Of a DNA stretch of 64,000 bases, positions 9,453 to 20,350 are shown in pieces (positions within the stretch are counted from its first letter, which is position 1; each line of letters opens with the position of its first letter). The stretch is from an uncultured Spirochaetota bacterium (GTDB taxonomy: Bacteria > Spirochaetota > Spirochaetia > SZUA-6 > Fen-1364), in contig CAWJSK010000012.1 of NCBI GenBank assembly GCA_963845535.1, positions 722,339 to 786,338 of the forward strand, read 5' to 3'. Under the pieces are notes generated by a model. The model ran no database searches, had not been told where the DNA came from, and worked only from the letters and a program-made list of their open reading frames with translations. The translations under genes and the position numbers were made by a program.

Positions 9453-11593
9453 CTAGTTGCCATTGCCGTTCGCCCCGTGGCCGTTGCCGTTCCCTTCTAT
9501 CTGGACTTTCACGATGTGGGGCGTCGGCGCGCCGGGAAGGGCGACCCCGTTGTCACCGTCGGCCTTGATCTTGAATTGCGCGGTCATGCGCTGCAGCTCC
9601 TGCGCCATGCTGGAAAGCTGCTCGGTGGAGGAGGACATCTCTTCCGCTGATGATGCCGCCGACTGTGTCAGCTCGTTCACGCTCTCGACGGCCTTGGACA
9701 CCTGCTTCGAGTTCGCGCTCTGCTGTTCGGTGGCGGCTGAGATGCTCTGGCTCATCTCGCTGACGTTCTCCAGCGCCTTGGCCAGCTCCTTGATGGCGCC
9801 AACCTGCTGCTGCATGCTGTCGGTGAGCTCGGCAATCATGTCCTTCACCTTTTGAGAAGCGCCGCGGATCTGCTCCATGGCGCCCTGGGAGCCGTTGGCA
9901 ATCTCCACGCCCCTGGTCACGTTCTTTACGCTTTCCCTGATGAGCCCTTCTATCTCCTTGGTTGAAGAAGAGGACCGGTCCGCCAGCTTGCTCACCTCGT
10001 CTGCAACCACCGCGAACCCGCGACCGTGCTCCCCTGCCCTCGCCGCCTCGATGGAAGCGTTCAACGCCAGGAGGTTCGTCTGGTCGGCGATATCGGAGAT
10101 GACGTTTATGATCCCGCCGATCTTCTCGGAGCTTTCGGCGATCAGCGTGATCCCCCGCACCACTTCCGTGACGGCCCGCGCCCCTTCCTGTGCATTCTCC
10201 ACGGACTTCGCCGCAAGCCCCGAGATCTCGGTGAGACTGTGTGAGATGTCGTCAATGGACTTCTGCACCTGCGCCATGGAGCTTGCTCCCTGCTCCACCG
10301 CCGCCGCCTGCGACTGTGCGTTCTCACTGACCTGGTCAACGGAGGCGGACAGCTCTTCCACGGAAGCTGATGTCTCCTCGAGCGTCGAGGCCTGGCTCTG
10401 CGCCCCTTCGGCAAGGGACATGGAGCTGGCGGAGATCTCCTCGCTGGAGGCTGCCACTTGCTCTGCGCTTTCCTGGATGGTGGCAACCATGCCTCTCAGT
10501 CTCACCGACATGGAGTTGAGCGCATCGGCGAGCTTCCCCACTTCGTCGCGCTGATGGATGGGGAGCTGTTGAGTGAAATCCCCCCCGGCTACAAGCTGCG
10601 CGAACTCGACCCCGCGGCGTATGGGGATTCGTGATGCCGCGCGAAAACAGCAGGAAGACAAGGAAAGCGAGAATGACCGCCGCCAAACCCGACGAGCATG
10701 ACGAGGTTTCGCACCTCGTAGATCGTTCCGAGGTACTCGGCGTCCGGAAGCGTAAAGCCGACGCTCCATCCCGTGGAAGCCACGGGCGCGTACCCTGCGG
10801 TCTTCGCCACTCCCTGGAACACGTAGTGATCGACCCCGGCTTCTCCGTTGACCATCTTGGCGGCAAAGCCTTCCGAGCCTTTCTGTTCGAGCAGGTTCAT
10901 CTTGAGGATATTCTCCGCGTTCGGATGCGCGATGATGATGCCGGAACGGTCAACCACATAGGCATACCCGGTCTTTCCGATCGTCTCCTTGACGATCATG
11001 TCGTTCAGGAAGCCGATGTCCACGATCAACGTGGCCACGCCGACGACCCGATCCCCATCCTTCACGGGCATGGCCACGGGAGACACAGGTTTGCCGGAAA
11101 CCTTGCTTTGTACCACCATTCCAATGCTGGGTTTTCCTGCCAGCCCGTCTTTCACGTACTGCCTCTCGCGCAGATCGAGCCCGACGTCGCTGTTGTCGGA
11201 GCTGGTGATGACCAATCCGCTCGAGCCGACGAGGGTGACCCTTTCATAGGCCCCGCCCAACTGCGGGTTGTCGTGGAACGTCGAAAGCTTGCGAAAAGCC
11301 GCCGCGAGCTCCTTCTGTGACTTTGCCGCGCCTTTGTCTGCTTCTGCCGCGGCCGCCGCCACGATGGTCGGGTCAGTTGCAAGGCTCAGGGCAATGCGGC
11401 TTTCCTCGGCGAAGACCCTGTCGACCACCTGGGCGGTATCCTTGGCCCGTGCTCCAAGCTGTTCACGTTCGATTGCCGTGAGCCCTGTCGTGGAACGGGC
11501 GACGCTGAAGAACGCCACGATCAGCAGAGGGATGATCATGATGATCGTTCCGACCGTAATGAGCTTGGCCCCGATTCGAATGTTCTTTAGCAT
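9453..11593 (-). pseudogene. Methyl-accepting chemotaxis protein (dCache sensor + HAMP + MCP signalling domain), interrupted by two frame changes around TM2
   Basis: ORF 10589..11611 encodes TM1 plus the Cache domain. TM2 ([16 protein letters not shown]) is readable only in the third frame (ORF 10336..10866). HAMP and the signalling domain ([28 protein letters not shown]) are in ORF 9453..10769. RBS AGGAGG precedes ATG 11593. Confidence 0.85.
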
Positions 11594-11635
11594 CTGTTGC
11601 CTCCTAGCCACGCCTGCTCGCGGCTAAGGACAGAA

Positions 11636-15071: not shown

Positions 15072-15128
15072 CGCTACCAGAATGGATAAATCACCGCAAC
15101 ACTTCGAAGGGTAGGACCGTCATGAAGT

Positions 15129-16115
15129 CTACTGCTTACAAAGGGCGGTTGGAGCGTTTTTGTCGATAAACTCTTTATGTGCAGCGGGCAACGGAAAAAG
15201 GGCTTCCGGCTTATTGAGATCCAAGACCAACGTCCCGGCGCAGCATTTACGATTCTCGCGCCCCTCAGAATATAAATCGACCAAATGTTTCGGTTCAGTC
15301 CTCGGTATCATCTTCGCGCAATGTTCTGAAAGCTGAGTACATACGATGCGGAAGTTTTTCAGATTCTTGTGCAGTTCTTTGAATATGATTGGCAATGGAT
15401 GCTTCGCTCTACCCCTAGCAACGGAGAAGACAATAGTCGAAGGGCTCACGGCAGCGCAAAGCTTTCGAACAAACGATTCTATTGGTGTTCCCGTTCCACC
15501 GCCATGATGAGGGAAAACCAGCAAAGGGGCACTGGCGTCGGCACCGTCAGCGAGCAAGTCGTCGAGCCCAATCTCATCCAAATCGCCGGGCAAAAGAGCC
15601 AAAGGCTTTCCGTCCAGCAGAAGACGTACTACGACACTCAGAGAGTTGCTTCGTATTTTGCGCTTGAAGCGTTCCTTGCCGTTTACTCCCTTTCCAACGA
15701 GGTATTTGCTAGGCCCAAGGATCTGAACTTGAACGGAGCCCTGATTGTACTTACCAAAGTCGTCGCGTGCGATAGATGTTTCGAGAACTATTCTGCCTTT
15801 GAGAGATTCCTGATTAAGAACAAATAGCAGATCATCCCAAACCTCAGTTCCTTTGGAGGCATCGCCGTTGAGGCAAACTCGGGCTATATCAACAGTTTTT
15901 GCGGCCAATAGGGCCACAAGCCCTCCGATGTGATCTTTGTCCGCATGCGAAAGAAGTAATACATCTATTTGTTTGATTTCTTGGGTTTCGAGGAATTCTA
16001 ACAAGGCGCTTCCGGCTCCCGAATCGATTACTACAACACCCCCTGAGTCGCTCAGCACCGCGCTGTTACCGTGGCCGACGTCAAGTACCGCTAGACTCGG
16101 CCTTTTGTAATGCAT
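15129..16115 (-). CDS. Stand-alone ComEC/Rec2-type metallo-beta-lactamase fold hydrolase (candidate nuclease effector)
   Basis: LAVLDVGHGNSAVL, LLLSHADKDHIGG (15930-15947), NSLSVVVRL, LLPGDLDE, LVFPHHGGG and AKHPLP, in ComEC MBL-domain order. ATG 16115 lies 1 nt after the upstream TAA. Confidence 0.75.
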   Translation of the reverse strand: MHYKRPSLAVLDVGHGNSAVLSDSGGVVVIDSGAGSALLEFLETQEIKQIDVLLLSHADKDHIGGLVALLAAKTVDIARVCLNGDASKGTEVWDDLLFVLNQESLKGRIVLETSIARDDFGKYNQGSVQVQILGPSKYLVGKGVNGKERFKRKIRSNSLSVVVRLLLDGKPLALLPGDLDEIGLDDLLADGADASAPLLVFPHHGGGTGTPIESFVRKLCAAVSPSTIVFSVARGRAKHPLPIIFKELHKNLKNFRIVCTQLSEHCAKMIPRTEPKHLVDLYSEGRENRKCCAGTLVLDLNKPEALFPLPAAHKEFIDKNAPTALCKQ

Positions 16116-16116
16116 A

Positions 16117-16779
16117 TTACTGAACTTCCCATTCACATACATAGAGCTCGTCTGCACTATCCGCGCCAATGTTCACTTGCGCGTAGAAACGCATATCAGT
16201 TTCTATTTTGCCTGATAGCAATGGCGGCAAATCCGCAAAATAGATTCGGATCTTTTGATCGGCATTCCACCCCGGCACCACGATGTAGAAGTACTCCCCT
16301 GATTCATCCACTTGGGTTATGCGCACAAGAGTTCTCCAAGGCTTTCGACTCGGGTTGTATTTGCCCGCACTTTCTTTGAGACAACGTTCAAAACCTCTGA
16401 CAATAGTATCTGGATTGTATGTCGATGGTCTCAATAGTATTGGGATGAATCGACGCTTGCTTCGAAGGAGCGTTATGTCAGCATCATCGTAAGTTGTGCA
16501 AAGTAAAGCGGGAAAGCGCCCGATATTTGATAAGGCAACAAGTTGGTCACCATCAAAGGGCGAATAGCTCCTTATTCGCAGGTGATAATCGCAAATAATC
16601 GCATCAGCTTTCGCATGGATTTCCTTTAGAGATGATTCGAGATTCCGCAAGGGGCCAAGCTCGAATACCGGTGCTAGTCCCATATCTTCAATAGAGTAGC
16701 CATAGCTTTCCCGGGATTCTTTCTCGTCGTCTACAATAGCTACGCGCTCGATTTTTCGCCCTTCAATAGTCAGCGCCAT
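16117..16779 (-). CDS. Receiver (REC) domain protein with an unassigned ~80-aa C-terminal domain
   Basis: VAIVDDEK (acidic pair D17/D18), AIICDYHL (D64, codon 16588-16590), LLCTTY (T95/T96), and FIPILLRP where Arg replaces the usual Lys. The C-terminal beta-rich segment WRTLVRITQVDESGEYFYIVVPGW has no motif I recognise. Confidence 0.7.
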   Translation of the reverse strand: MALTIEGRKIERVAIVDDEKESRESYGYSIEDMGLAPVFELGPLRNLESSLKEIHAKADAIICDYHLRIRSYSPFDGDQLVALSNIGRFPALLCTTYDDADITLLRSKRRFIPILLRPSTYNPDTIVRGFERCLKESAGKYNPSRKPWRTLVRITQVDESGEYFYIVVPGWNADQKIRIYFADLPPLLSGKIETDMRFYAQVNIGADSADELYVCEWEVQ

Positions 16780-16781
16780 TT

Positions 16782-18845
16782 CTATTTCCCCAATACAGGC
16801 AATCTGATTATCATTTCCGCGCCTCCCAATAAGCTGTGCTCAACTGCGTCGACCTCCCCGCCAAGATCGGAAACACTGTCTCTTACTATCGCCAAGCCCA
16901 AGCCCGTTCCATTCCTTCTGGTCGTTTCACCTGGCAGCCAAATATCCCGCTTCGAGATGCCAATTATGCCCGGACCGTTGTCTTGCACGTTCAGCGAGAA
17001 CAAGCCACTTTCTACGCTGGTCTGAATATGAATAATGCGTCTCCCAACGGTAGATTCCTCGAGAGCAGCCAAGGAATTGTTCAAGAGATTGGTAACAATG
17101 GACTCGATTGCAGCTTCACTTCCTCGCAAATAGGGAGAACCTTCGCAGTAGGTTGCTAATACTTCAACATCGCGGCCTTCTGTGAAAGGCTTGAAAGTCT
17201 CCAGCACGCCGCGGATAACTTGATTCAGTTCGACTCGCGTAAGTCTACGTTTTTCGTGATCGAGCAACTTCGAAGTAACCGCACTAAGAACCGAAAGCCT
17301 CTCTGTAGCCCTGACGATCGTTTGGACTGGCCTTTCTAGCTGTTGTGAATAGGCGACGCCCAGTGCAGCACGGGCTCTCCGCTCAATCGCATCAACTGCT
17401 ATGGTGATTGCTTTTAGGGGGTTCCCTTTCGATTCGTGTGCAAAAGTCGCTGCGGTTATTCCTGCGGTGCTAAGAGTCCGGTAGAGTTGGATTTCTCGTC
17501 GGAGTTTGTCTTTGTCTGATTCTTGAGCGCGCTCATACGCTTCTGCGGCTTTCTTGATTTGCTCGCGGGCCGGCTCATGAGCCCTTTCAATTGCTTCAAA
17601 TAGCTTCTTCTTAGTTGGCTTTTCCGCCTCCAAGGCGACCGATCTTTCTTTTGCCCGCCGCGCTTGAGCGACGTCAAGGCGTCTACGCGCCATCCACTCA
17701 CATGTATCTTGCGCAAACCGTCGTAATTCCCGAAAACTCTCGGTTTCGATAAAACCAGACCGATCAGTCTTTTGAAGGAGGACGGCGCTTCTGTCAAAAG
17801 CGACGACGCGCCCAATCACAGTATTTGTGCTAGGTCGTTCCTCAGGGCTACGTACACGAGCGAGGTTGAGCTCAAGCCAATCATTTCCTGGATCTCCGTA
17901 TGGCGAAACCCGCAACTCGTTTTGATATAGATGGACCCCTCCGAAAACATCAAGCCACCGTCGGACCTCGCCAATTGTTGAACTCCGAGTTGAGAAAGTC
18001 GTACTGTCAAGTATAAAAACCCAGAGATCGAATTTTGCGGAAGGGCAACGATAATGCTGATTGCTTCCTTGGGTCAATTCATCGTGAGTAGTTACAAAAA
18101 TCTGCTTCCCTTTCCAATCAACAATGGAAGCATTTGCTCGACCATTTTTATCCACAGTCGCGATAAGATGATATTCAGCATCATCAAAATAGCGTTGCTG
18201 AACAAGTTTCTCAAATTCGGCAAACTCAGGCGCAATTAGGACAGGCCTAAATCCCTCTGGGCTATCGCCAAAGGGATCTGCGAGAAGGATTAGCTCCCGC
18301 GCTAGTCTTCTAACGTCAGACCGAGTGATCTCCGTTGTCAGATCTTCTAGATAGATCGTCGTTCCGTGGGAATCATTTTCTTTTCGTTGAGAGGACTCAA
18401 TTGTTAGATTTACTTCCTCTACTATCTCCGCCCGTTCAAAATCCTTCCAGTCAATAAGCAGGTTATGCTCTTGCCTCGAATCTTCTTTTGGCCTGGTCGT
18501 CAGCAACGCTCGACTCCCAAGACGTAAGGCAGCAAGTCGTCCCAGCCCCTTGCTTCCGGATGGAGTTCTGCCCAAAATGGTTCGTTCAGCCACTAGCTTC
18601 CCGGAACGCCCCAACACAAGCCAGCCAGTGATGATTTCGTCAACACCCATTCCACTTCCATCATCGCTTACAGTAATAGTTCCGCCAGCTCTCTCGGTAT
18701 TCGTCAGGAGTATAGTGCAAGAGTGTGCGTCGGCGTCGTAAGCATTCTTTGCAAGCTCCAGAATTCCTCTATCCGGATGAGGGTTTAACTCCTCCCCAAG
18801 GCGACGCAAAATGTCTGGAGCAAATCGGAACTGTGCTTTGATCAT
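16782..18845 (-). CDS. Dual-GHKL protein: N-terminal MORC/Hsp90-like ATPase fused to a C-terminal histidine-kinase core
   Basis: N-terminal Bergerat boxes: ELAKNAYDA, VSDDGSGMG, GSKGLGRLA. A coiled-coil-like K/E/R-rich stretch spans about aa 390-455. H-box TFAHESKGNPL (His470 codon 17436-17438); N-box NLLNNSLAAL; G1 VQDNGPGI; G2 GTGLGLAIV. Confidence 0.8.
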   Translation of the reverse strand: MIKAQFRFAPDILRRLGEELNPHPDRGILELAKNAYDADAHSCTILLTNTERAGGTITVSDDGSGMGVDEIITGWLVLGRSGKLVAERTILGRTPSGSKGLGRLAALRLGSRALLTTRPKEDSRQEHNLLIDWKDFERAEIVEEVNLTIESSQRKENDSHGTTIYLEDLTTEITRSDVRRLARELILLADPFGDSPEGFRPVLIAPEFAEFEKLVQQRYFDDAEYHLIATVDKNGRANASIVDWKGKQIFVTTHDELTQGSNQHYRCPSAKFDLWVFILDSTTFSTRSSTIGEVRRWLDVFGGVHLYQNELRVSPYGDPGNDWLELNLARVRSPEERPSTNTVIGRVVAFDRSAVLLQKTDRSGFIETESFRELRRFAQDTCEWMARRRLDVAQARRAKERSVALEAEKPTKKKLFEAIERAHEPAREQIKKAAEAYERAQESDKDKLRREIQLYRTLSTAGITAATFAHESKGNPLKAITIAVDAIERRARAALGVAYSQQLERPVQTIVRATERLSVLSAVTSKLLDHEKRRLTRVELNQVIRGVLETFKPFTEGRDVEVLATYCEGSPYLRGSEAAIESIVTNLLNNSLAALEESTVGRRIIHIQTSVESGLFSLNVQDNGPGIIGISKRDIWLPGETTRRNGTGLGLAIVRDSVSDLGGEVDAVEHSLLGGAEMIIRLPVLGK

Positions 18846-18846
18846 G

Positions 18847-20136
18847 CTACTTATCCCACCAAGGGGTCTCCCTTATTGCCGCAACCGTAAGGTGCCGGCA
18901 TCTAATACGTGAATTGAGCCAATCGCTAGTCCTCGATCTTTTCATTCTTTGAATCAATTGACGACACGTCTTCACCTGCCCATTACGAGGACTGCACACA
19001 ATCAAGTGATTCTCGACCGCGACGGGTCGCGCTCCCGTAATTAGTGTACATATCGCCCTGTGACCATCTTCAGGTCTAGACGTTCGGCGGATTACGACAA
19101 ATGGCGGCTCGAAAAGGCGTCCTTTAAAACGCCGCCTCTCTCTGATTCGTTTGACTTGACTCCAACTAGGAACCGATCGTGCATGGAGGTACGCCACCAC
19201 AAAACCTCTTTGTGGATGGCGATGGGGAACGACCGATCCGACGTGCACGTCGAACAAATCGCCGACAAGGATTTGCCCTTTGTTTGGCCTGCCAAACCAA
19301 AGCTGGTTTTGAGATTTCTTTGGAAATGGCTTCTTTTTCGTATCAAGGATGAATACGTCAATATCAGCCCAAGGATCAAAAAGCCCACAAGATCGGACAC
19401 TTCCTACAGAACTATTTTCGGAAACCATATCTCGCCATCTCTCGAAGCGGCTTCCAGAGCGCAGCACGTCCGGCAGGATTGCTGTAATTCGTGTTCCGGC
19501 AGATGAATTAATAAGACTCGCCTCAAGGAAGACTGCTGCCGCCGTTAGCTTGCCAGCCGCCCAATTGCATCCTTTGGGCGCTTTTACGAAGCCATAAGGT
19601 GGATTCATAATGACCCAAGAGGCTCTTACGAACAGATCAGTGGCAGTAAGCCCGTTATCGACTCGGATGAGAGGAAATAGCAAATTCAGTTCTGAGATCT
19701 CGCACCTTACGGAATCTCCCGTTCGTTGTCGCGCCATCATGAGTAGCCTTGCCTTGGCCGCTCTCACAAACTCTTTATTGGTGTCGCACCCCGTTAAATG
19801 AGAACCCCAAAAATCAAGGGTAGCAACGAGACTGGGAAGGACGGGCAGACGCTGAGCGGCAGCTAGCAACAGGTCGCCGGCGCCGCAGGTAGGATCAAAG
19901 AATACAGGCATCAGGGTTGAACTGTCGAAATGTGGAACAGCTCGCCTTGCGAGAGTTCTTCCAGTAAAAAATGCGCCAATCCTGCGACGCGTTTTGAGAC
20001 TCAGAACACCTGCGAGTTGGCGACCAGGCTCCCCGTCAAGTGCAAGGGCAACGCTCTTTGTCCAATCATTTCCTTCGATTGCGGGCTGAGTCGCCATACT
20101 TTCTAGCTGTTCAACATAGGGCCGAAAAGCTTTCAT
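18847..20136 (-). CDS. Gamma-class N6-adenine DNA methyltransferase with a TaqI-like C-terminal target-recognition domain
   Basis: GAFFTG (motif X-like), FFDPTCGAGDLL (motif I, 19873-19896), IMNPPYG (motif IV, NPPY at 19594-19605). RBS AAGGTGG lies upstream of ATG 20136. Confidence 0.85.
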   Translation of the reverse strand: MKAFRPYVEQLESMATQPAIEGNDWTKSVALALDGEPGRQLAGVLSLKTRRRIGAFFTGRTLARRAVPHFDSSTLMPVFFDPTCGAGDLLLAAAQRLPVLPSLVATLDFWGSHLTGCDTNKEFVRAAKARLLMMARQRTGDSVRCEISELNLLFPLIRVDNGLTATDLFVRASWVIMNPPYGFVKAPKGCNWAAGKLTAAAVFLEASLINSSAGTRITAILPDVLRSGSRFERWRDMVSENSSVGSVRSCGLFDPWADIDVFILDTKKKPFPKKSQNQLWFGRPNKGQILVGDLFDVHVGSVVPHRHPQRGFVVAYLHARSVPSWSQVKRIRERRRFKGRLFEPPFVVIRRTSRPEDGHRAICTLITGARPVAVENHLIVCSPRNGQVKTCRQLIQRMKRSRTSDWLNSRIRCRHLTVAAIRETPWWDK

Positions 20137-20350
20137 TTTTCCACCTTGGGATGATAACAGAAACCCGCCGTGAAATGAAATGCCAATTCCAGCACTCCCC
20201 TGTCGGACATACTCGCAGCCTTCTGAGATTTGTTACAGAGAGTCACGCCAGGGCAAAAACCCGGGCACGTAATCGTTTACAATTGCGGATGACATTTATT
20301 AATATAGTGACACGTCACGTAACCATTTGTTAGGGAGCTTGTCAACCAAA

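What the first reader, a model, noticed from the sequence alone, without database searches (positions are those of the whole stretch)
16117..16779. Receiver domain fused to an unrecognised beta-rich C-terminal domain, with Arg in place of the conserved beta5 Lys
Seen: the REC landmarks are present (DD17-18, D64 in AIICDYHL, TT95-96), but the position normally held by Lys-Pro reads LLRP. The last ~80 aa (WRTLVRITQVDESGEYFYIVVPGWNADQKIRIYFADLPP...YVCEWEV) match no output-domain motif I know: no HTH, GGDEF, CheB or LytTR signature.
Inference: this may be an adaptor that binds or activates the downstream MBL protein rather than DNA. It would be analogous to, but different from, the receiver-effector proteins of Detocs.
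Basis: partly seen in the sequence, partly recalled or inferred. Interest (0 to 1): 0.6.

Follow-up and report, generated by a model that had tools for sequence, protein, structure and literature searches.

The report
Receiver protein with OB-like nuclease-partner domain
This 220-residue protein is the phospho-receiver of a horizontally acquired methylase-kinase-receiver-nuclease cassette related to the Ambrosia anti-phage system, and its unrecognised tail is a small OB-like beta-barrel found only next to one type of metallo-beta-lactamase nuclease, so it probably switches that nuclease on rather than regulating transcription.

Summary
The protein has a true receiver fold. The acidic pocket (D17, D18, D64) and T95 are conserved in 97-100% of 240 relatives. 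Arg117 occupies the beta5 lysine position, but this is a family trait and not a point substitution: that position is K in 18%, R in 15% and non-basic in the rest.

The C-terminal ~80 residues match no Pfam, NCBIfam, PADLOC or PDB sequence. They are modelled as a five-strand barrel with OB/cold-shock topology. The structural matches are weak.

The gene is the third of a low-GC four-gene island: N6A methylase, MORC-like GHKL/histidine-kinase fusion, this receiver, and a ComEC-type MBL hydrolase. In all 77 assessable loci from more than 15 phyla, the receiver is directly followed by the MBL. The methylase and kinase are homologous to AbrA and AbrB of Ambrosia. In Ambrosia both the receiver tail (helical) and the nuclease (HNH) are different.

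Most likely mechanism, inferred: phosphorylation of D64 lets the OB-like domain license the MBL nuclease, by contacting the enzyme and/or supplying DNA binding. A transcription-factor role is not excluded. I class it as a new variant of a known kind.

The parts
15072..20326 (.). Low-GC island holding exactly four co-oriented minus-strand genes
   Evidence: GC is 0.48-0.53 inside and 0.61-0.65 in both flanks. No tRNA gene in the window and no flanking repeat above chance. REC-X occurs in only 3 of 61 related genomes and in none of 20 other genomes of the genus.
18847..20136 (-). N6-adenine-type DNA methyltransferase (429 aa), AbrA homologue
   Evidence: DPTCGAGD and NPPY motifs are visible in the translation. 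Weak Eco57I / MTase_II / MAD2 hits. 37% identity over 345 aa to Ambrosia AbrA, E = 7e-69.
16782..18845 (-). Fusion of an N-terminal MORC/paraMORC-like GHKL ATPase (HATPase_c_3, aa 28-162) with a C-terminal histidine-kinase core (H470 box, HATPase_c aa 577-684); AbrB homologue
   Evidence: Pfam and NCBIfam hits. H470, the N and G boxes, and the N-terminal Bergerat motifs are invariant in 6 orthologues. 28% identity over 366 aa to the available part of AbrB, E = 2e-32.
16369..16779 (-). REC-X receiver domain (aa 1-137): D17, D18, D64, T95 pocket; R117 at the beta5 lysine position
   Evidence: AlphaFold2 model and Foldseek hits to solved receivers. Conservation in 240 relatives.
16588..16590 (-). 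Codon of D64, the predicted phospho-acceptor
   Evidence: GAT read directly from the sequence. D in 239 of 240 relatives. The equivalent D60A mutation abolishes defence in Ambrosia AbrC (10.1101/2025.09.30.679545).
16429..16431 (-). Codon of R117, the position of the canonical beta5 Lys
   Evidence: AGA read directly from the sequence. The position is not conserved in the family.
16120..16368 (-). Conserved linker (aa 138-144) and C-terminal OB-like five-strand barrel (aa ~145-220); conserved in 99.6-100% of relatives: E136 (last turn of alpha5, just upstream of this part), R145, N203; >=90%: R149, W171, P185, A200, G205, A206
   Evidence: Models. Foldseek best hits are cold-shock/S1/OB proteins, not significant. 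Conservation. No family hit.
15129..16115 (-). ComEC-type metallo-beta-lactamase-fold hydrolase (328 aa from the ATG at 16115), the presumed nuclease effector
   Evidence: Lactamase_B E = 1e-11; best NCBIfam hits are ComEC/Rec2. The start lies 1 nt after the REC-X stop. H57-A-D59-x-D61-H62, D178, D180, H203-H204 and four Cys are >=95% conserved in 77 orthologues.

Best explanation
REC-X is the response-regulator subunit of a mobile four-gene, restriction-modification-like defence cassette: methylase, paraMORC-type histidine kinase, REC-X and a ComEC-type MBL hydrolase. The cassette is an MBL-nuclease variant of the recently described Ambrosia system. The kinase, whose 'sensor' is a second DNA-associated GHKL ATPase module, autophosphorylates on H470 and passes the phosphoryl group to D64 of REC-X. 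The receiver is atypical: it keeps the acidic pocket and Thr/Ser but has dispensed with the beta5 lysine. Its output is a small OB-like barrel that exists only in this family and only beside this MBL. Phosphorylation most likely releases or re-orients the barrel so that it licenses the MBL nuclease at the protein level. It could do this by docking on the enzyme and/or by holding the nucleic-acid substrate for it, as the OB fold of ComEC enhances the ComEC MBL nuclease. Shown here: the fold, residue conservation, synteny, homology to AbrA/AbrB, and horizontal acquisition. Inferred: phosphotransfer, contact with the MBL, nuclease activity on DNA, and the anti-phage role.
For: (1) Receiver fold with an intact pocket: D17 97.5%, D18 100%, D64 99.6%, T/S95 100% of 240 relatives.
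(2) The adjacent kinase has an invariant H-box and ATP-binding boxes. The genes abut: TAG-aa-ATG and TAA-t-ATG.
(3) In the 77 assessable loci, which come from more than 15 phyla, REC-X lies directly after the kinase gene in 76 and 1.3 kb after it in L068, where an IS3 element is inserted. It carries both domains in all 77 and is followed at once by an MBL orthologue in all 77.
(4) All 148 listed representatives of the family carry both domains; median length is 222 aa. The C-domain profile hits nothing else in 401 genomes of the phylum.
(5) The tail co-varies with the nuclease. The Ambrosia methylase and kinase are homologous (37% and 28% identity), but AbrC shares only the N-terminal ~100 residues of the receiver (21% identity) and has a different C-terminal half that looks helical from its sequence (my reading, not modelled), and the nuclease there is HNH. 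More distant paraMORC-kinases in Pseudomonadales are followed by receivers fused to large unrelated C-domains and lack both this barrel and the MBL.
(6) No HTH or other DNA-binding output is detectable. The tail is acidic (median pI 5.5). No shared operator-like k-mer occurs upstream of the operon in 71 loci.
(7) The MBL metal ligands are invariant, so the effector is an active hydrolase.
(8) Precedents: the ComEC OB fold binds DNA and enhances the ComEC MBL nuclease when on the same chain (PMC12455585). AbrC D60A abolishes Ambrosia defence.
(9) The island has low GC and is sporadic among relatives, and some copies sit among other defence genes such as SNF2, DUF1016 and DUF1156.
Against: No complex model, binding experiment or expression data exists, so contact between REC-X and the MBL rests only on synteny and co-variation, which any co-inherited operon would also show. 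The authors of Ambrosia favour transcriptional control by the receiver and saw infection-induced reporter expression. Structural matches of the tail to OB/cold-shock domains are not significant (best E 0.02-0.05; TM 0.5-0.7), and the isolated-domain model is only moderately confident (pLDDT 78). Profile comparison with ComEC OB domains found no relationship (probability 0.1%). No REC-X/MBL or barrel/MBL fusion was seen among the 120 best MBL relatives. Lack of the beta5 lysine could mean that phosphorylation chemistry or signalling differs from the canonical scheme. No defence activity has been measured for any member of this variant.
Confidence: 0.55

Rival explanations
1. REC-X is a transcription factor. 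Phosphorylated REC-X binds DNA through the barrel and induces the methylase and MBL genes on infection, as proposed for AbrC in Ambrosia.
For: The Ambrosia model, with reporters induced on infection, was read by its authors as transcriptional control by the two-component pair. OB/cold-shock folds can bind nucleic acid. Unlike Ambrosia, this cassette has no XRE/C-protein gene, so another regulator might be needed.
Against: No HTH, winged helix, LytTR or other known response-regulator DNA-binding domain is detectable. The secondary structure is almost all beta. The tail is acidic (pI 5.5). No conserved operator-like word occurs upstream of 71 operons despite invariant polar residues in the domain. 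The tail is swapped together with the nuclease between sister systems, which a regulator of its own promoter would not need. AbrC itself gives no Pfam HTH hit.
Confidence: 0.2
2. The barrel is a nucleic-acid sensor or anchor that acts without touching the MBL. For example, it binds ssDNA or RNA produced during infection and feeds back on the kinase, or the protein is mainly a phosphate sink or buffer.
For: OB topology. Invariant Arg/Asn/Trp residues (R145, R149, W171, N203) are of the kind found in nucleic-acid-binding clefts. Detocs provides a precedent for a buffering receiver (my own knowledge of Rousset et al. 2023).
Against: This does not explain why the domain is never found away from the MBL. 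The domain is acidic overall. It is the only receiver in the cassette, so there is no separate effector receiver to buffer.
Confidence: 0.15
3. This is an ordinary housekeeping two-component regulator unrelated to defence, and the neighbouring methylase and MBL are coincidental.
For: The window contains many other two-component genes.
Against: The four-gene order is conserved in unrelated flanks across more than 15 phyla. The island has foreign GC content. It is absent from congeners. The methylase and kinase are homologous to an experimentally validated defence system.
Confidence: 0.02

Closest known systems
Ambrosia anti-phage system of Pseudomonas aeruginosa (AbrR-AbrA-AbrB-AbrC-AbrD; bioRxiv 10.1101/2025.09.30.679545)
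   Same: The gene order is the same: N6A methylase, GHKL/histidine-kinase fusion, receiver protein, nuclease. The methylase is 37% identical to AbrA and the kinase 28% identical to AbrB. The receiver aspartate is essential in Ambrosia (D60A) and invariant here (D64).
   Different: AbrC shares only the N-terminal ~100 residues of the receiver (21% identity, E = 0.007). Its C-terminal half is unrelated in sequence and looks helical (read from its sequence), where REC-X has the OB-like barrel. The nuclease is a type IV-like HNH (AbrD) there and a ComEC-type MBL here. There is no XRE regulator (AbrR) gene here. Ambrosia is reported only in Gammaproteobacteria, whereas this variant spans more than 15 phyla.
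HEF_HK / Response_reg_2 two-component-like elements of restriction-modification loci (Bellieny-Rabelo et al. 2021, PMC8011034)
   Same: The kinase architecture is the same (HATPase_c_3 + His-box region + HATPase_c), with an adjacent receiver gene and a methylase/nuclease neighbourhood. I recovered such loci in Pseudomonadales with C5 methylase, Vsr or EcoRII neighbours.
   Different: The window proteins do not hit PF19191 or PF19192. Those receivers keep the beta5 Lys and are fused to large C-terminal domains of 200-450 aa; here the tail is an 80-residue barrel and the MBL is separate.
ComEC/Rec2 OB fold plus beta-lactamase-like nuclease domain (PMC5031224; PMC12455585)
   Same: The MBL's best family matches are ComEC/Rec2. 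ComEC also combines an OB fold with this type of MBL, and the OB fold enhances the nuclease.
   Different: There is no membrane channel here. The OB-like barrel is on a separate, receiver-controlled polypeptide. No profile similarity exists between the two OB domains, so this is an analogy and not homology.
Detocs (DtcA kinase, DtcB buffer receiver, DtcC receiver-effector)
   Same: A histidine kinase and a receiver are used to trigger a defence effector, rather than ordinary gene regulation (general logic, from my own knowledge).
   Different: There is no TPR sensor kinase, no second 'buffer' receiver and no receiver-PNP or other receiver-effector fusion. None of the four proteins hits a Detocs model in PADLOC. 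A methylase is present here and absent in Detocs.

Membership tests
Response-regulator receiver (CheY-like REC) superfamily | (beta-alpha)5 flavodoxin-like fold | tested here: met
   Model pLDDT 90.7. Foldseek gives 48 PDB hits with E <= 1e-3, and all of the 50 best listed are receiver domains or response regulators (TM on target 0.65-0.73 for the stand-alone receiver domains).
Response-regulator receiver (CheY-like REC) superfamily | Acidic pair after beta1, phospho-acceptor Asp after beta3, Thr/Ser after beta4 | tested here: met
   D17, D18, D64 and T95 are present and conserved in 97.5-100% of 240 relatives.
Response-regulator receiver (CheY-like REC) superfamily | Conserved Lys after beta5 | tested here: not met
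   R117 in this protein. In the family the position is K 18%, R 15% and non-basic otherwise; half of the members have no K/R in 116-120.
Response-regulator receiver (CheY-like REC) superfamily | Pfam PF00072 above the gathering score | tested here: not met
   13.5 bits against a cut-off of 30.2.
Response-regulator receiver (CheY-like REC) superfamily | Phosphotransfer from a cognate kinase | not testable with these tools
   The adjacent kinase has an invariant H470. Biochemistry is needed.
Ambrosia defence system | AbrA-type N6A methylase | tested here: met
   37% identity, E = 7e-69.
Ambrosia defence system | AbrB-type GHKL/histidine-kinase fusion | tested here: met
   28% identity over the 366 aa available, E = 2e-32.
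Ambrosia defence system | AbrC-type receiver protein | tested here: not met
   Only residues 12-101 align (21% identity, E = 0.007); the C-terminal halves are unrelated.
Ambrosia defence system | AbrD HNH endonuclease and AbrR XRE regulator | tested here: not met
   The fourth gene is an MBL. There is no further gene in the island, and 190 nt upstream lies a divergent SDR gene.
Ambrosia defence system | Protection against phages | not testable with these tools
   No experimental data exist for any MBL-variant member.
Detocs | TPR-sensor kinase DtcA, buffer receiver DtcB, receiver-effector fusion DtcC | tested here: not met
   No PADLOC Detocs hit for any of the four proteins. There is a single receiver gene and the effector is a separate protein.
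HEF_HK / Response_reg_2 elements | Matches to PF19191 and PF19192 | tested here: not met
   Neither family is listed at E <= 0.1. A distant Pseudomonadales relative does match PF19192.
OB fold / cold-shock-like domain | Five-strand barrel with order b1-b2-b3-helix-b4-b5 | tested here: met
   DSSP assignment on both models.
OB fold / cold-shock-like domain | Significant structural or sequence match to known OB/CSD proteins | tested here: inconclusive
   The best Foldseek hits are CSD/S1/uS17/eIF5A, with E 0.02-0.3 and TM 0.5-0.69. No Pfam CSD/S1 hit. hhalign against the ComEC OB gives probability 0.1%.
Known response-regulator DNA-binding outputs (OmpR/PhoB winged helix, NarL/GerE, LytTR, Fis-type HTH_8) | Detectable HTH or LytTR domain in the C-terminal part | tested here: not met
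   No such hit at E <= 0.1 in Pfam or NCBIfam. The tail has a single 4-residue helix.

The most novel reading that the evidence does not exclude
REC-X defines a response-regulator class whose output is a phospho-gated OB clamp. It switches a ComEC-type MBL DNase on at the protein level, making this cassette a restriction-like system whose nuclease is licensed by histidine-aspartate phosphotransfer from a DNA-sensing paraMORC kinase rather than by transcription. It does so with a receiver that works without the 'universal' beta5 lysine.
Probability: 0.4. Interest if true: 0.75.

Novelty: new variant of a known kind. Interest (0 to 1): 0.55.

Why it matters
Two-component signalling inside restriction-modification-like defence has been known only from one comparative-genomics paper (2021) and one tested system (Ambrosia, 2025). 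How the receiver acts in that system is unresolved; its authors assume transcription.

The family found here is larger and far more widely spread. It has 748 clusters at 50% identity, and 432 species-level genomes encode a relative of the kinase. It has no model in Pfam, NCBIfam or PADLOC. It pairs an invariant receiver pocket with an output domain that is not a DNA-binding HTH and that changes together with the nuclease.

This makes one question directly testable: does phosphotransfer gate a defence nuclease post-translationally? The assay needs only three small soluble proteins.

The family is also a natural set of receivers that keep Asp/Asp/Asp/Thr but lack the beta5 lysine. That is useful for understanding what the lysine is needed for.

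Tried and rejected
- **Family and sequence searches of REC-X:** Pfam, NCBIfam and PADLOC gave only a sub-threshold Response_reg hit. phmmer against PDB gave nothing meaningful.
- **C-domain profile against PDB:** the only hits were two engineered proteins (OR276/OR277, E = 3e-4, 44 residues), which I regard as spurious.
- **Foldseek with the whole model:** this returned only receiver hits, so the tail was modelled and searched separately.
- **Rosetta-stone search for MBL fusions:** the 120 best MBL relatives are all stand-alone proteins; most are about 300-355 aa and a few are shorter fragments.
- **Homology of the barrel to the ComEC OB fold:** rejected (hhalign probability 0.1%).
- **Search for a conserved operator upstream of the operon:** nothing above shuffled controls.
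- **Search for the barrel in other architectures:** none among 148 representatives or in 401 genomes of the phylum.
- **Detocs membership:** rejected.
- **Lysine compensation:** I considered that R117 is a conservative K-to-R change peculiar to this protein; family statistics reject this. I tested whether a basic residue at T+1 (position 96) replaces the lysine. There is a negative association (odds ratio 0.36, p = 8e-4, not corrected for phylogeny), but 81 of 240 sequences have neither, so this is at best partial.
- **Order-level search from a locus id:** the first attempt failed because a genome handle was needed.
- **Not possible here:** multimer modelling and inspection of model coordinates.
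Full report
**What is at the coordinates**

The finding's coordinates are right, but the gene reads on the minus strand. An ATG at 16779 runs to a TAA at 16119-16117 and gives 220 residues. The plus strand is closed by many stops.

The gene is the third of four tightly packed minus-strand genes:
- A 429-aa methyltransferase with DPTCGAGD and NPPY motifs (18847-20136).
- A 687-aa protein with an N-terminal HATPase_c_3 module and a C-terminal histidine-kinase core (16782-18845).
- REC-X, the subject of this finding.
- A 328-aa metallo-beta-lactamase-fold protein, starting at the ATG at 16115, one base after the REC-X stop (15129-16115).

These assignments rest. The four genes form a block of 48-53% GC in a 61-65% GC background. 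There is no tRNA gene in the window and no flanking repeat above chance.

**Is it a receiver?**

By sequence, barely: Pfam Response_reg gives 13.5 bits against a cut-off of 30.2. By structure, clearly. An AlphaFold2 model built on 28 homologues has pLDDT 90.7 and pTM 0.86. Its N-terminal 137 residues match about 50 solved receiver domains (E ~1e-4, TM on target 0.65-0.73).

I collected 240 non-redundant family members from three sources:
- 29 clusters from the word-indexed search.
- The 148 best of 748 cluster representatives from the exhaustive search.
- Genes read from 80 genomic loci.

Conservation of the pocket in these 240:

| Position | Conservation |
|---|---|
| D17 | 97.5% |
| D18 | 100% |
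| D64 | 99.6% |
| 95 | T or S in 100% |

So the phospho-acceptor pocket is under strong selection.

Position 117 sits directly after beta5 in the model, 22 residues after T95, as K109 follows T87 in CheY. It is K in 44 sequences, R in 36, S in 34, T in 26 and P in 19. In 122 of 240 sequences there is no basic residue anywhere in 116-120. The 'Arg for Lys' is therefore a symptom of a family that has given up the beta5 lysine.

R106 (92%) and P113 (98%) in the alpha4-beta5 loop are conserved instead. Basic residues at position 96 are weakly anticorrelated with basic residues at 117 (odds ratio 0.36, p = 8e-4, not phylogeny-corrected). T96 itself is not conserved.

**The C-terminal domain**

Pfam, NCBIfam, PADLOC and PDB sequences give nothing for the tail. 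Both the full-length model (pLDDT about 90-95 over most of this region) and a separate model of residues 136-220 (pLDDT 78) show five strands with one short helix between strands 3 and 4. That is the OB-fold order.

Foldseek's best matches are cold-shock domains, S1 domains, ribosomal uS17, eIF5A, exosome cap proteins and viral ssDNA-binding proteins. Their E-values are only 0.02-0.3 and TM-scores 0.5-0.69. I call it OB-like at the level of fold and make no homology claim.

The domain is well conserved. R145 is conserved in 100% of relatives and N203 in 99.6%, as is E136 at the end of alpha5. R149, W171, P185, A200, G205 and A206 are conserved at 90% or more. The domain is acidic overall (median pI 5.5).

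All 148 representative hits carry both domains, with a median length of 222 aa. A profile of the barrel alone finds no other copy in 401 genomes of the phylum.

**Context**

Six homologues looked up in metagenome assemblies all showed the same four genes in unrelated flanks. One sits beside SNF2, DUF1016 and DUF1156 defence-type genes.

A scan of one genome per prokaryotic species with a kinase alignment found 432 relatives. The best 80 (43-70% identity) come from many phyla: Verrucomicrobiota, Latescibacterota, Spirochaetota, Acidobacteriota, Bacteroidota, Chloroflexota, Actinomycetota, Cyanobacteria, Planctomycetota, Proteobacteria, Elusimicrobiota, Armatimonadota and others.

In the 77 loci where the contig continues past the kinase gene:
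- REC-X with both domains follows the kinase directly in 76. In L068 an IS3 insertion separates them by 1.3 kb.
- An MBL orthologue follows REC-X in all 77.
- The distance from the REC-X stop to the MBL start is -35 to +17 nt in 76.

The methylase is directly upstream in about 70 loci. The others:
- It is missing or replaced in six (L017, L023, L033, L063, L066, L081).
- It is inverted in one (L061).
- It is split by an IS in one (L040).

A few copies are decaying, with the MBL split in L024, L037, L064 and L078 and the IS3 insertion in L068. Loss of the methylase without loss of the nuclease module argues against a classical self-protection dependence.

The MBL keeps H57-A-D59-x-D61-H62, D178, D180, H203-H204 and four cysteines in at least 95% of 77 orthologues. 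Its best family matches are ComEC/Rec2.

Among 61 related genomes REC-X occurs in three, and in none of 20 other genomes of the genus. This is a mobile accessory module.

**Relation to known systems**

The preprint (10.1101/2025.09.30.679545) describes five genes: an XRE regulator, an N6A methylase (AbrA), a histidine kinase/HSP90-like ATPase (AbrB), a receiver protein (AbrC) and an HNH nuclease (AbrD). All five are required for defence, AbrC D60A is inactive, and pre-methylation by AbrA does not protect phages.

Comparison with the sequences in its Table S1:

| Window protein | Ambrosia protein | Result |
|---|---|---|
| Methylase | AbrA | 37% identity, E = 7e-69 |
| Kinase | AbrB | 28% identity over the 366 residues available, E = 2e-32 |
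| REC-X | AbrC | Only residues 12-101 align (21% identity, E = 0.007) |

AbrC's C-terminal half is unrelated and, read from its sequence, looks helical. AbrC gives no Pfam hit at all.

The window cassette is therefore a relative of Ambrosia in which the receiver tail and the nuclease have been exchanged together, and in which the XRE gene is absent.

A wider layer was described in 2021 as HEF_HK / Response_reg_2 elements linked to paraMORC ATPases and restriction-modification genes (PMC8011034). I recovered 16 such distant kinases in Pseudomonadales. Most of them are followed by weakly receiver-like proteins that are fused to unrelated C-terminal regions of roughly 200-450 aa. Many of these regions carry a PxCD-like motif. 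Their neighbours include C5 methylase, Vsr, EcoRII or N4/N6 methylases. None has the barrel or the MBL.

Detocs shares only the idea of a kinase-receiver pair in defence. None of its parts is present and PADLOC gives no Detocs hit. A full-text search found no paper describing the MBL variant.

**How it most likely works**

Shown:
- A receiver with an intact acceptor pocket.
- A catalytically intact kinase next door (H470, N/G boxes and N-terminal Bergerat motifs invariant).
- A hydrolase with intact metal ligands.
- An output domain that exists only in this pairing.

Inferred:
- The kinase's MORC-like module senses something about DNA or infection.
- H470 phosphorylates D64.
- The phosphorylated receiver changes how the barrel is presented.
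- The barrel then licenses the MBL nuclease.

The latter has a precedent in ComEC, where the OB fold binds DNA and enhances the same type of MBL nuclease in cis (PMC12455585). That is an analogy only, because profile comparison of the two OB domains is negative.

I put about 0.55 on protein-level coupling to the MBL.

The main rival, at about 0.2, is the transcriptional model proposed for AbrC. Four observations count against it:
- There is no HTH.
- The tail is acidic and almost all beta.
- No shared upstream motif occurs in 71 loci.
- The tail and the nuclease are swapped together between sister systems.

None of these is decisive.

A nucleic-acid sensor or buffer role without contact to the MBL gets about 0.15. 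A housekeeping role is effectively excluded.

**Verdict**

The system type is known, but this receiver family, its OB-like output and its exclusive pairing with a ComEC-type MBL are not described in the libraries and papers I could search. I class it as a new variant of a known kind. It is of moderate to good interest, mainly because it offers a clean test of whether phosphotransfer can gate a defence nuclease directly.

Noticed in passing
L017, L023, L033, L063, L066, L081 (upstream of the kinase gene): Six of 77 cassettes keep kinase, REC-X and MBL but have no cognate methylase upstream. L063 instead has an unrelated Eco57I-like methylase next to a 311-aa ORF that I did not run against any family library, on the other strand. 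L033 sits behind DUF1156 and SNF2 genes. The nuclease module is apparently tolerated without its methylase.
   Followed up: partly
L040:2822-4763; L068:7058-8250; L024, L037, L064, L078 (MBL gene): These are decaying copies. A transposase-like gene is inserted in the methylase gene (L040). An IS3-type element is inserted between the kinase and REC-X genes (L068). The MBL gene is split into two ORFs in four loci.
   Followed up: partly
L121:3319-7715 (genome G001, which also holds the MBL-type cassette L036/L091): One Pseudomonadales genome carries two different paraMORC-kinase systems: the MBL type, and a second with a 362-aa receiver fusion followed by a C5 cytosine methylase.
   Followed up: partly
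L121, L122, L124, L126, L129, L132, L134, L135, L136 (gene after the kinase): The receiver-fusion proteins of the distant kinases share a short motif (LTPSCDL, LSPACDI, ISPRCDL, AQPCDL, VRPECDC) in an otherwise unannotated C-terminal domain. It may be an uncharacterised effector domain.
   Followed up: no
window 9453-11611, minus strand: A dCache ORF (10589-11611) and a methyl-accepting signalling-domain ORF (9453-10769) overlap by about 180 nt in different frames. This looks like one chemoreceptor gene broken by a frameshift or an assembly error.
   Followed up: no
window 15129-15400 (MBL residues ~259-326): The MBL family has four nearly invariant cysteines plus a histidine (C259, C266, C292, H313, C326) in a C-terminal extension. 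This suggests an extra structural metal site not typical of ComEC MBL domains.
   Followed up: no
REC-X residues 96 and 117 (window 16492-16494 and 16429-16431): Across 240 relatives a basic residue at T+1 (position 96) is less frequent when position 117 is basic (odds ratio 0.36, p = 8e-4, uncorrected for phylogeny). This hints at alternative placements of the positive charge in the active site.
   Followed up: partly
AbrC sequence from Table S1 of 10.1101/2025.09.30.679545: AbrC is described as carrying a winged helix-turn-helix, but it gives no Pfam hit at E <= 0.01, for either Response_reg or any HTH.
   Followed up: partly
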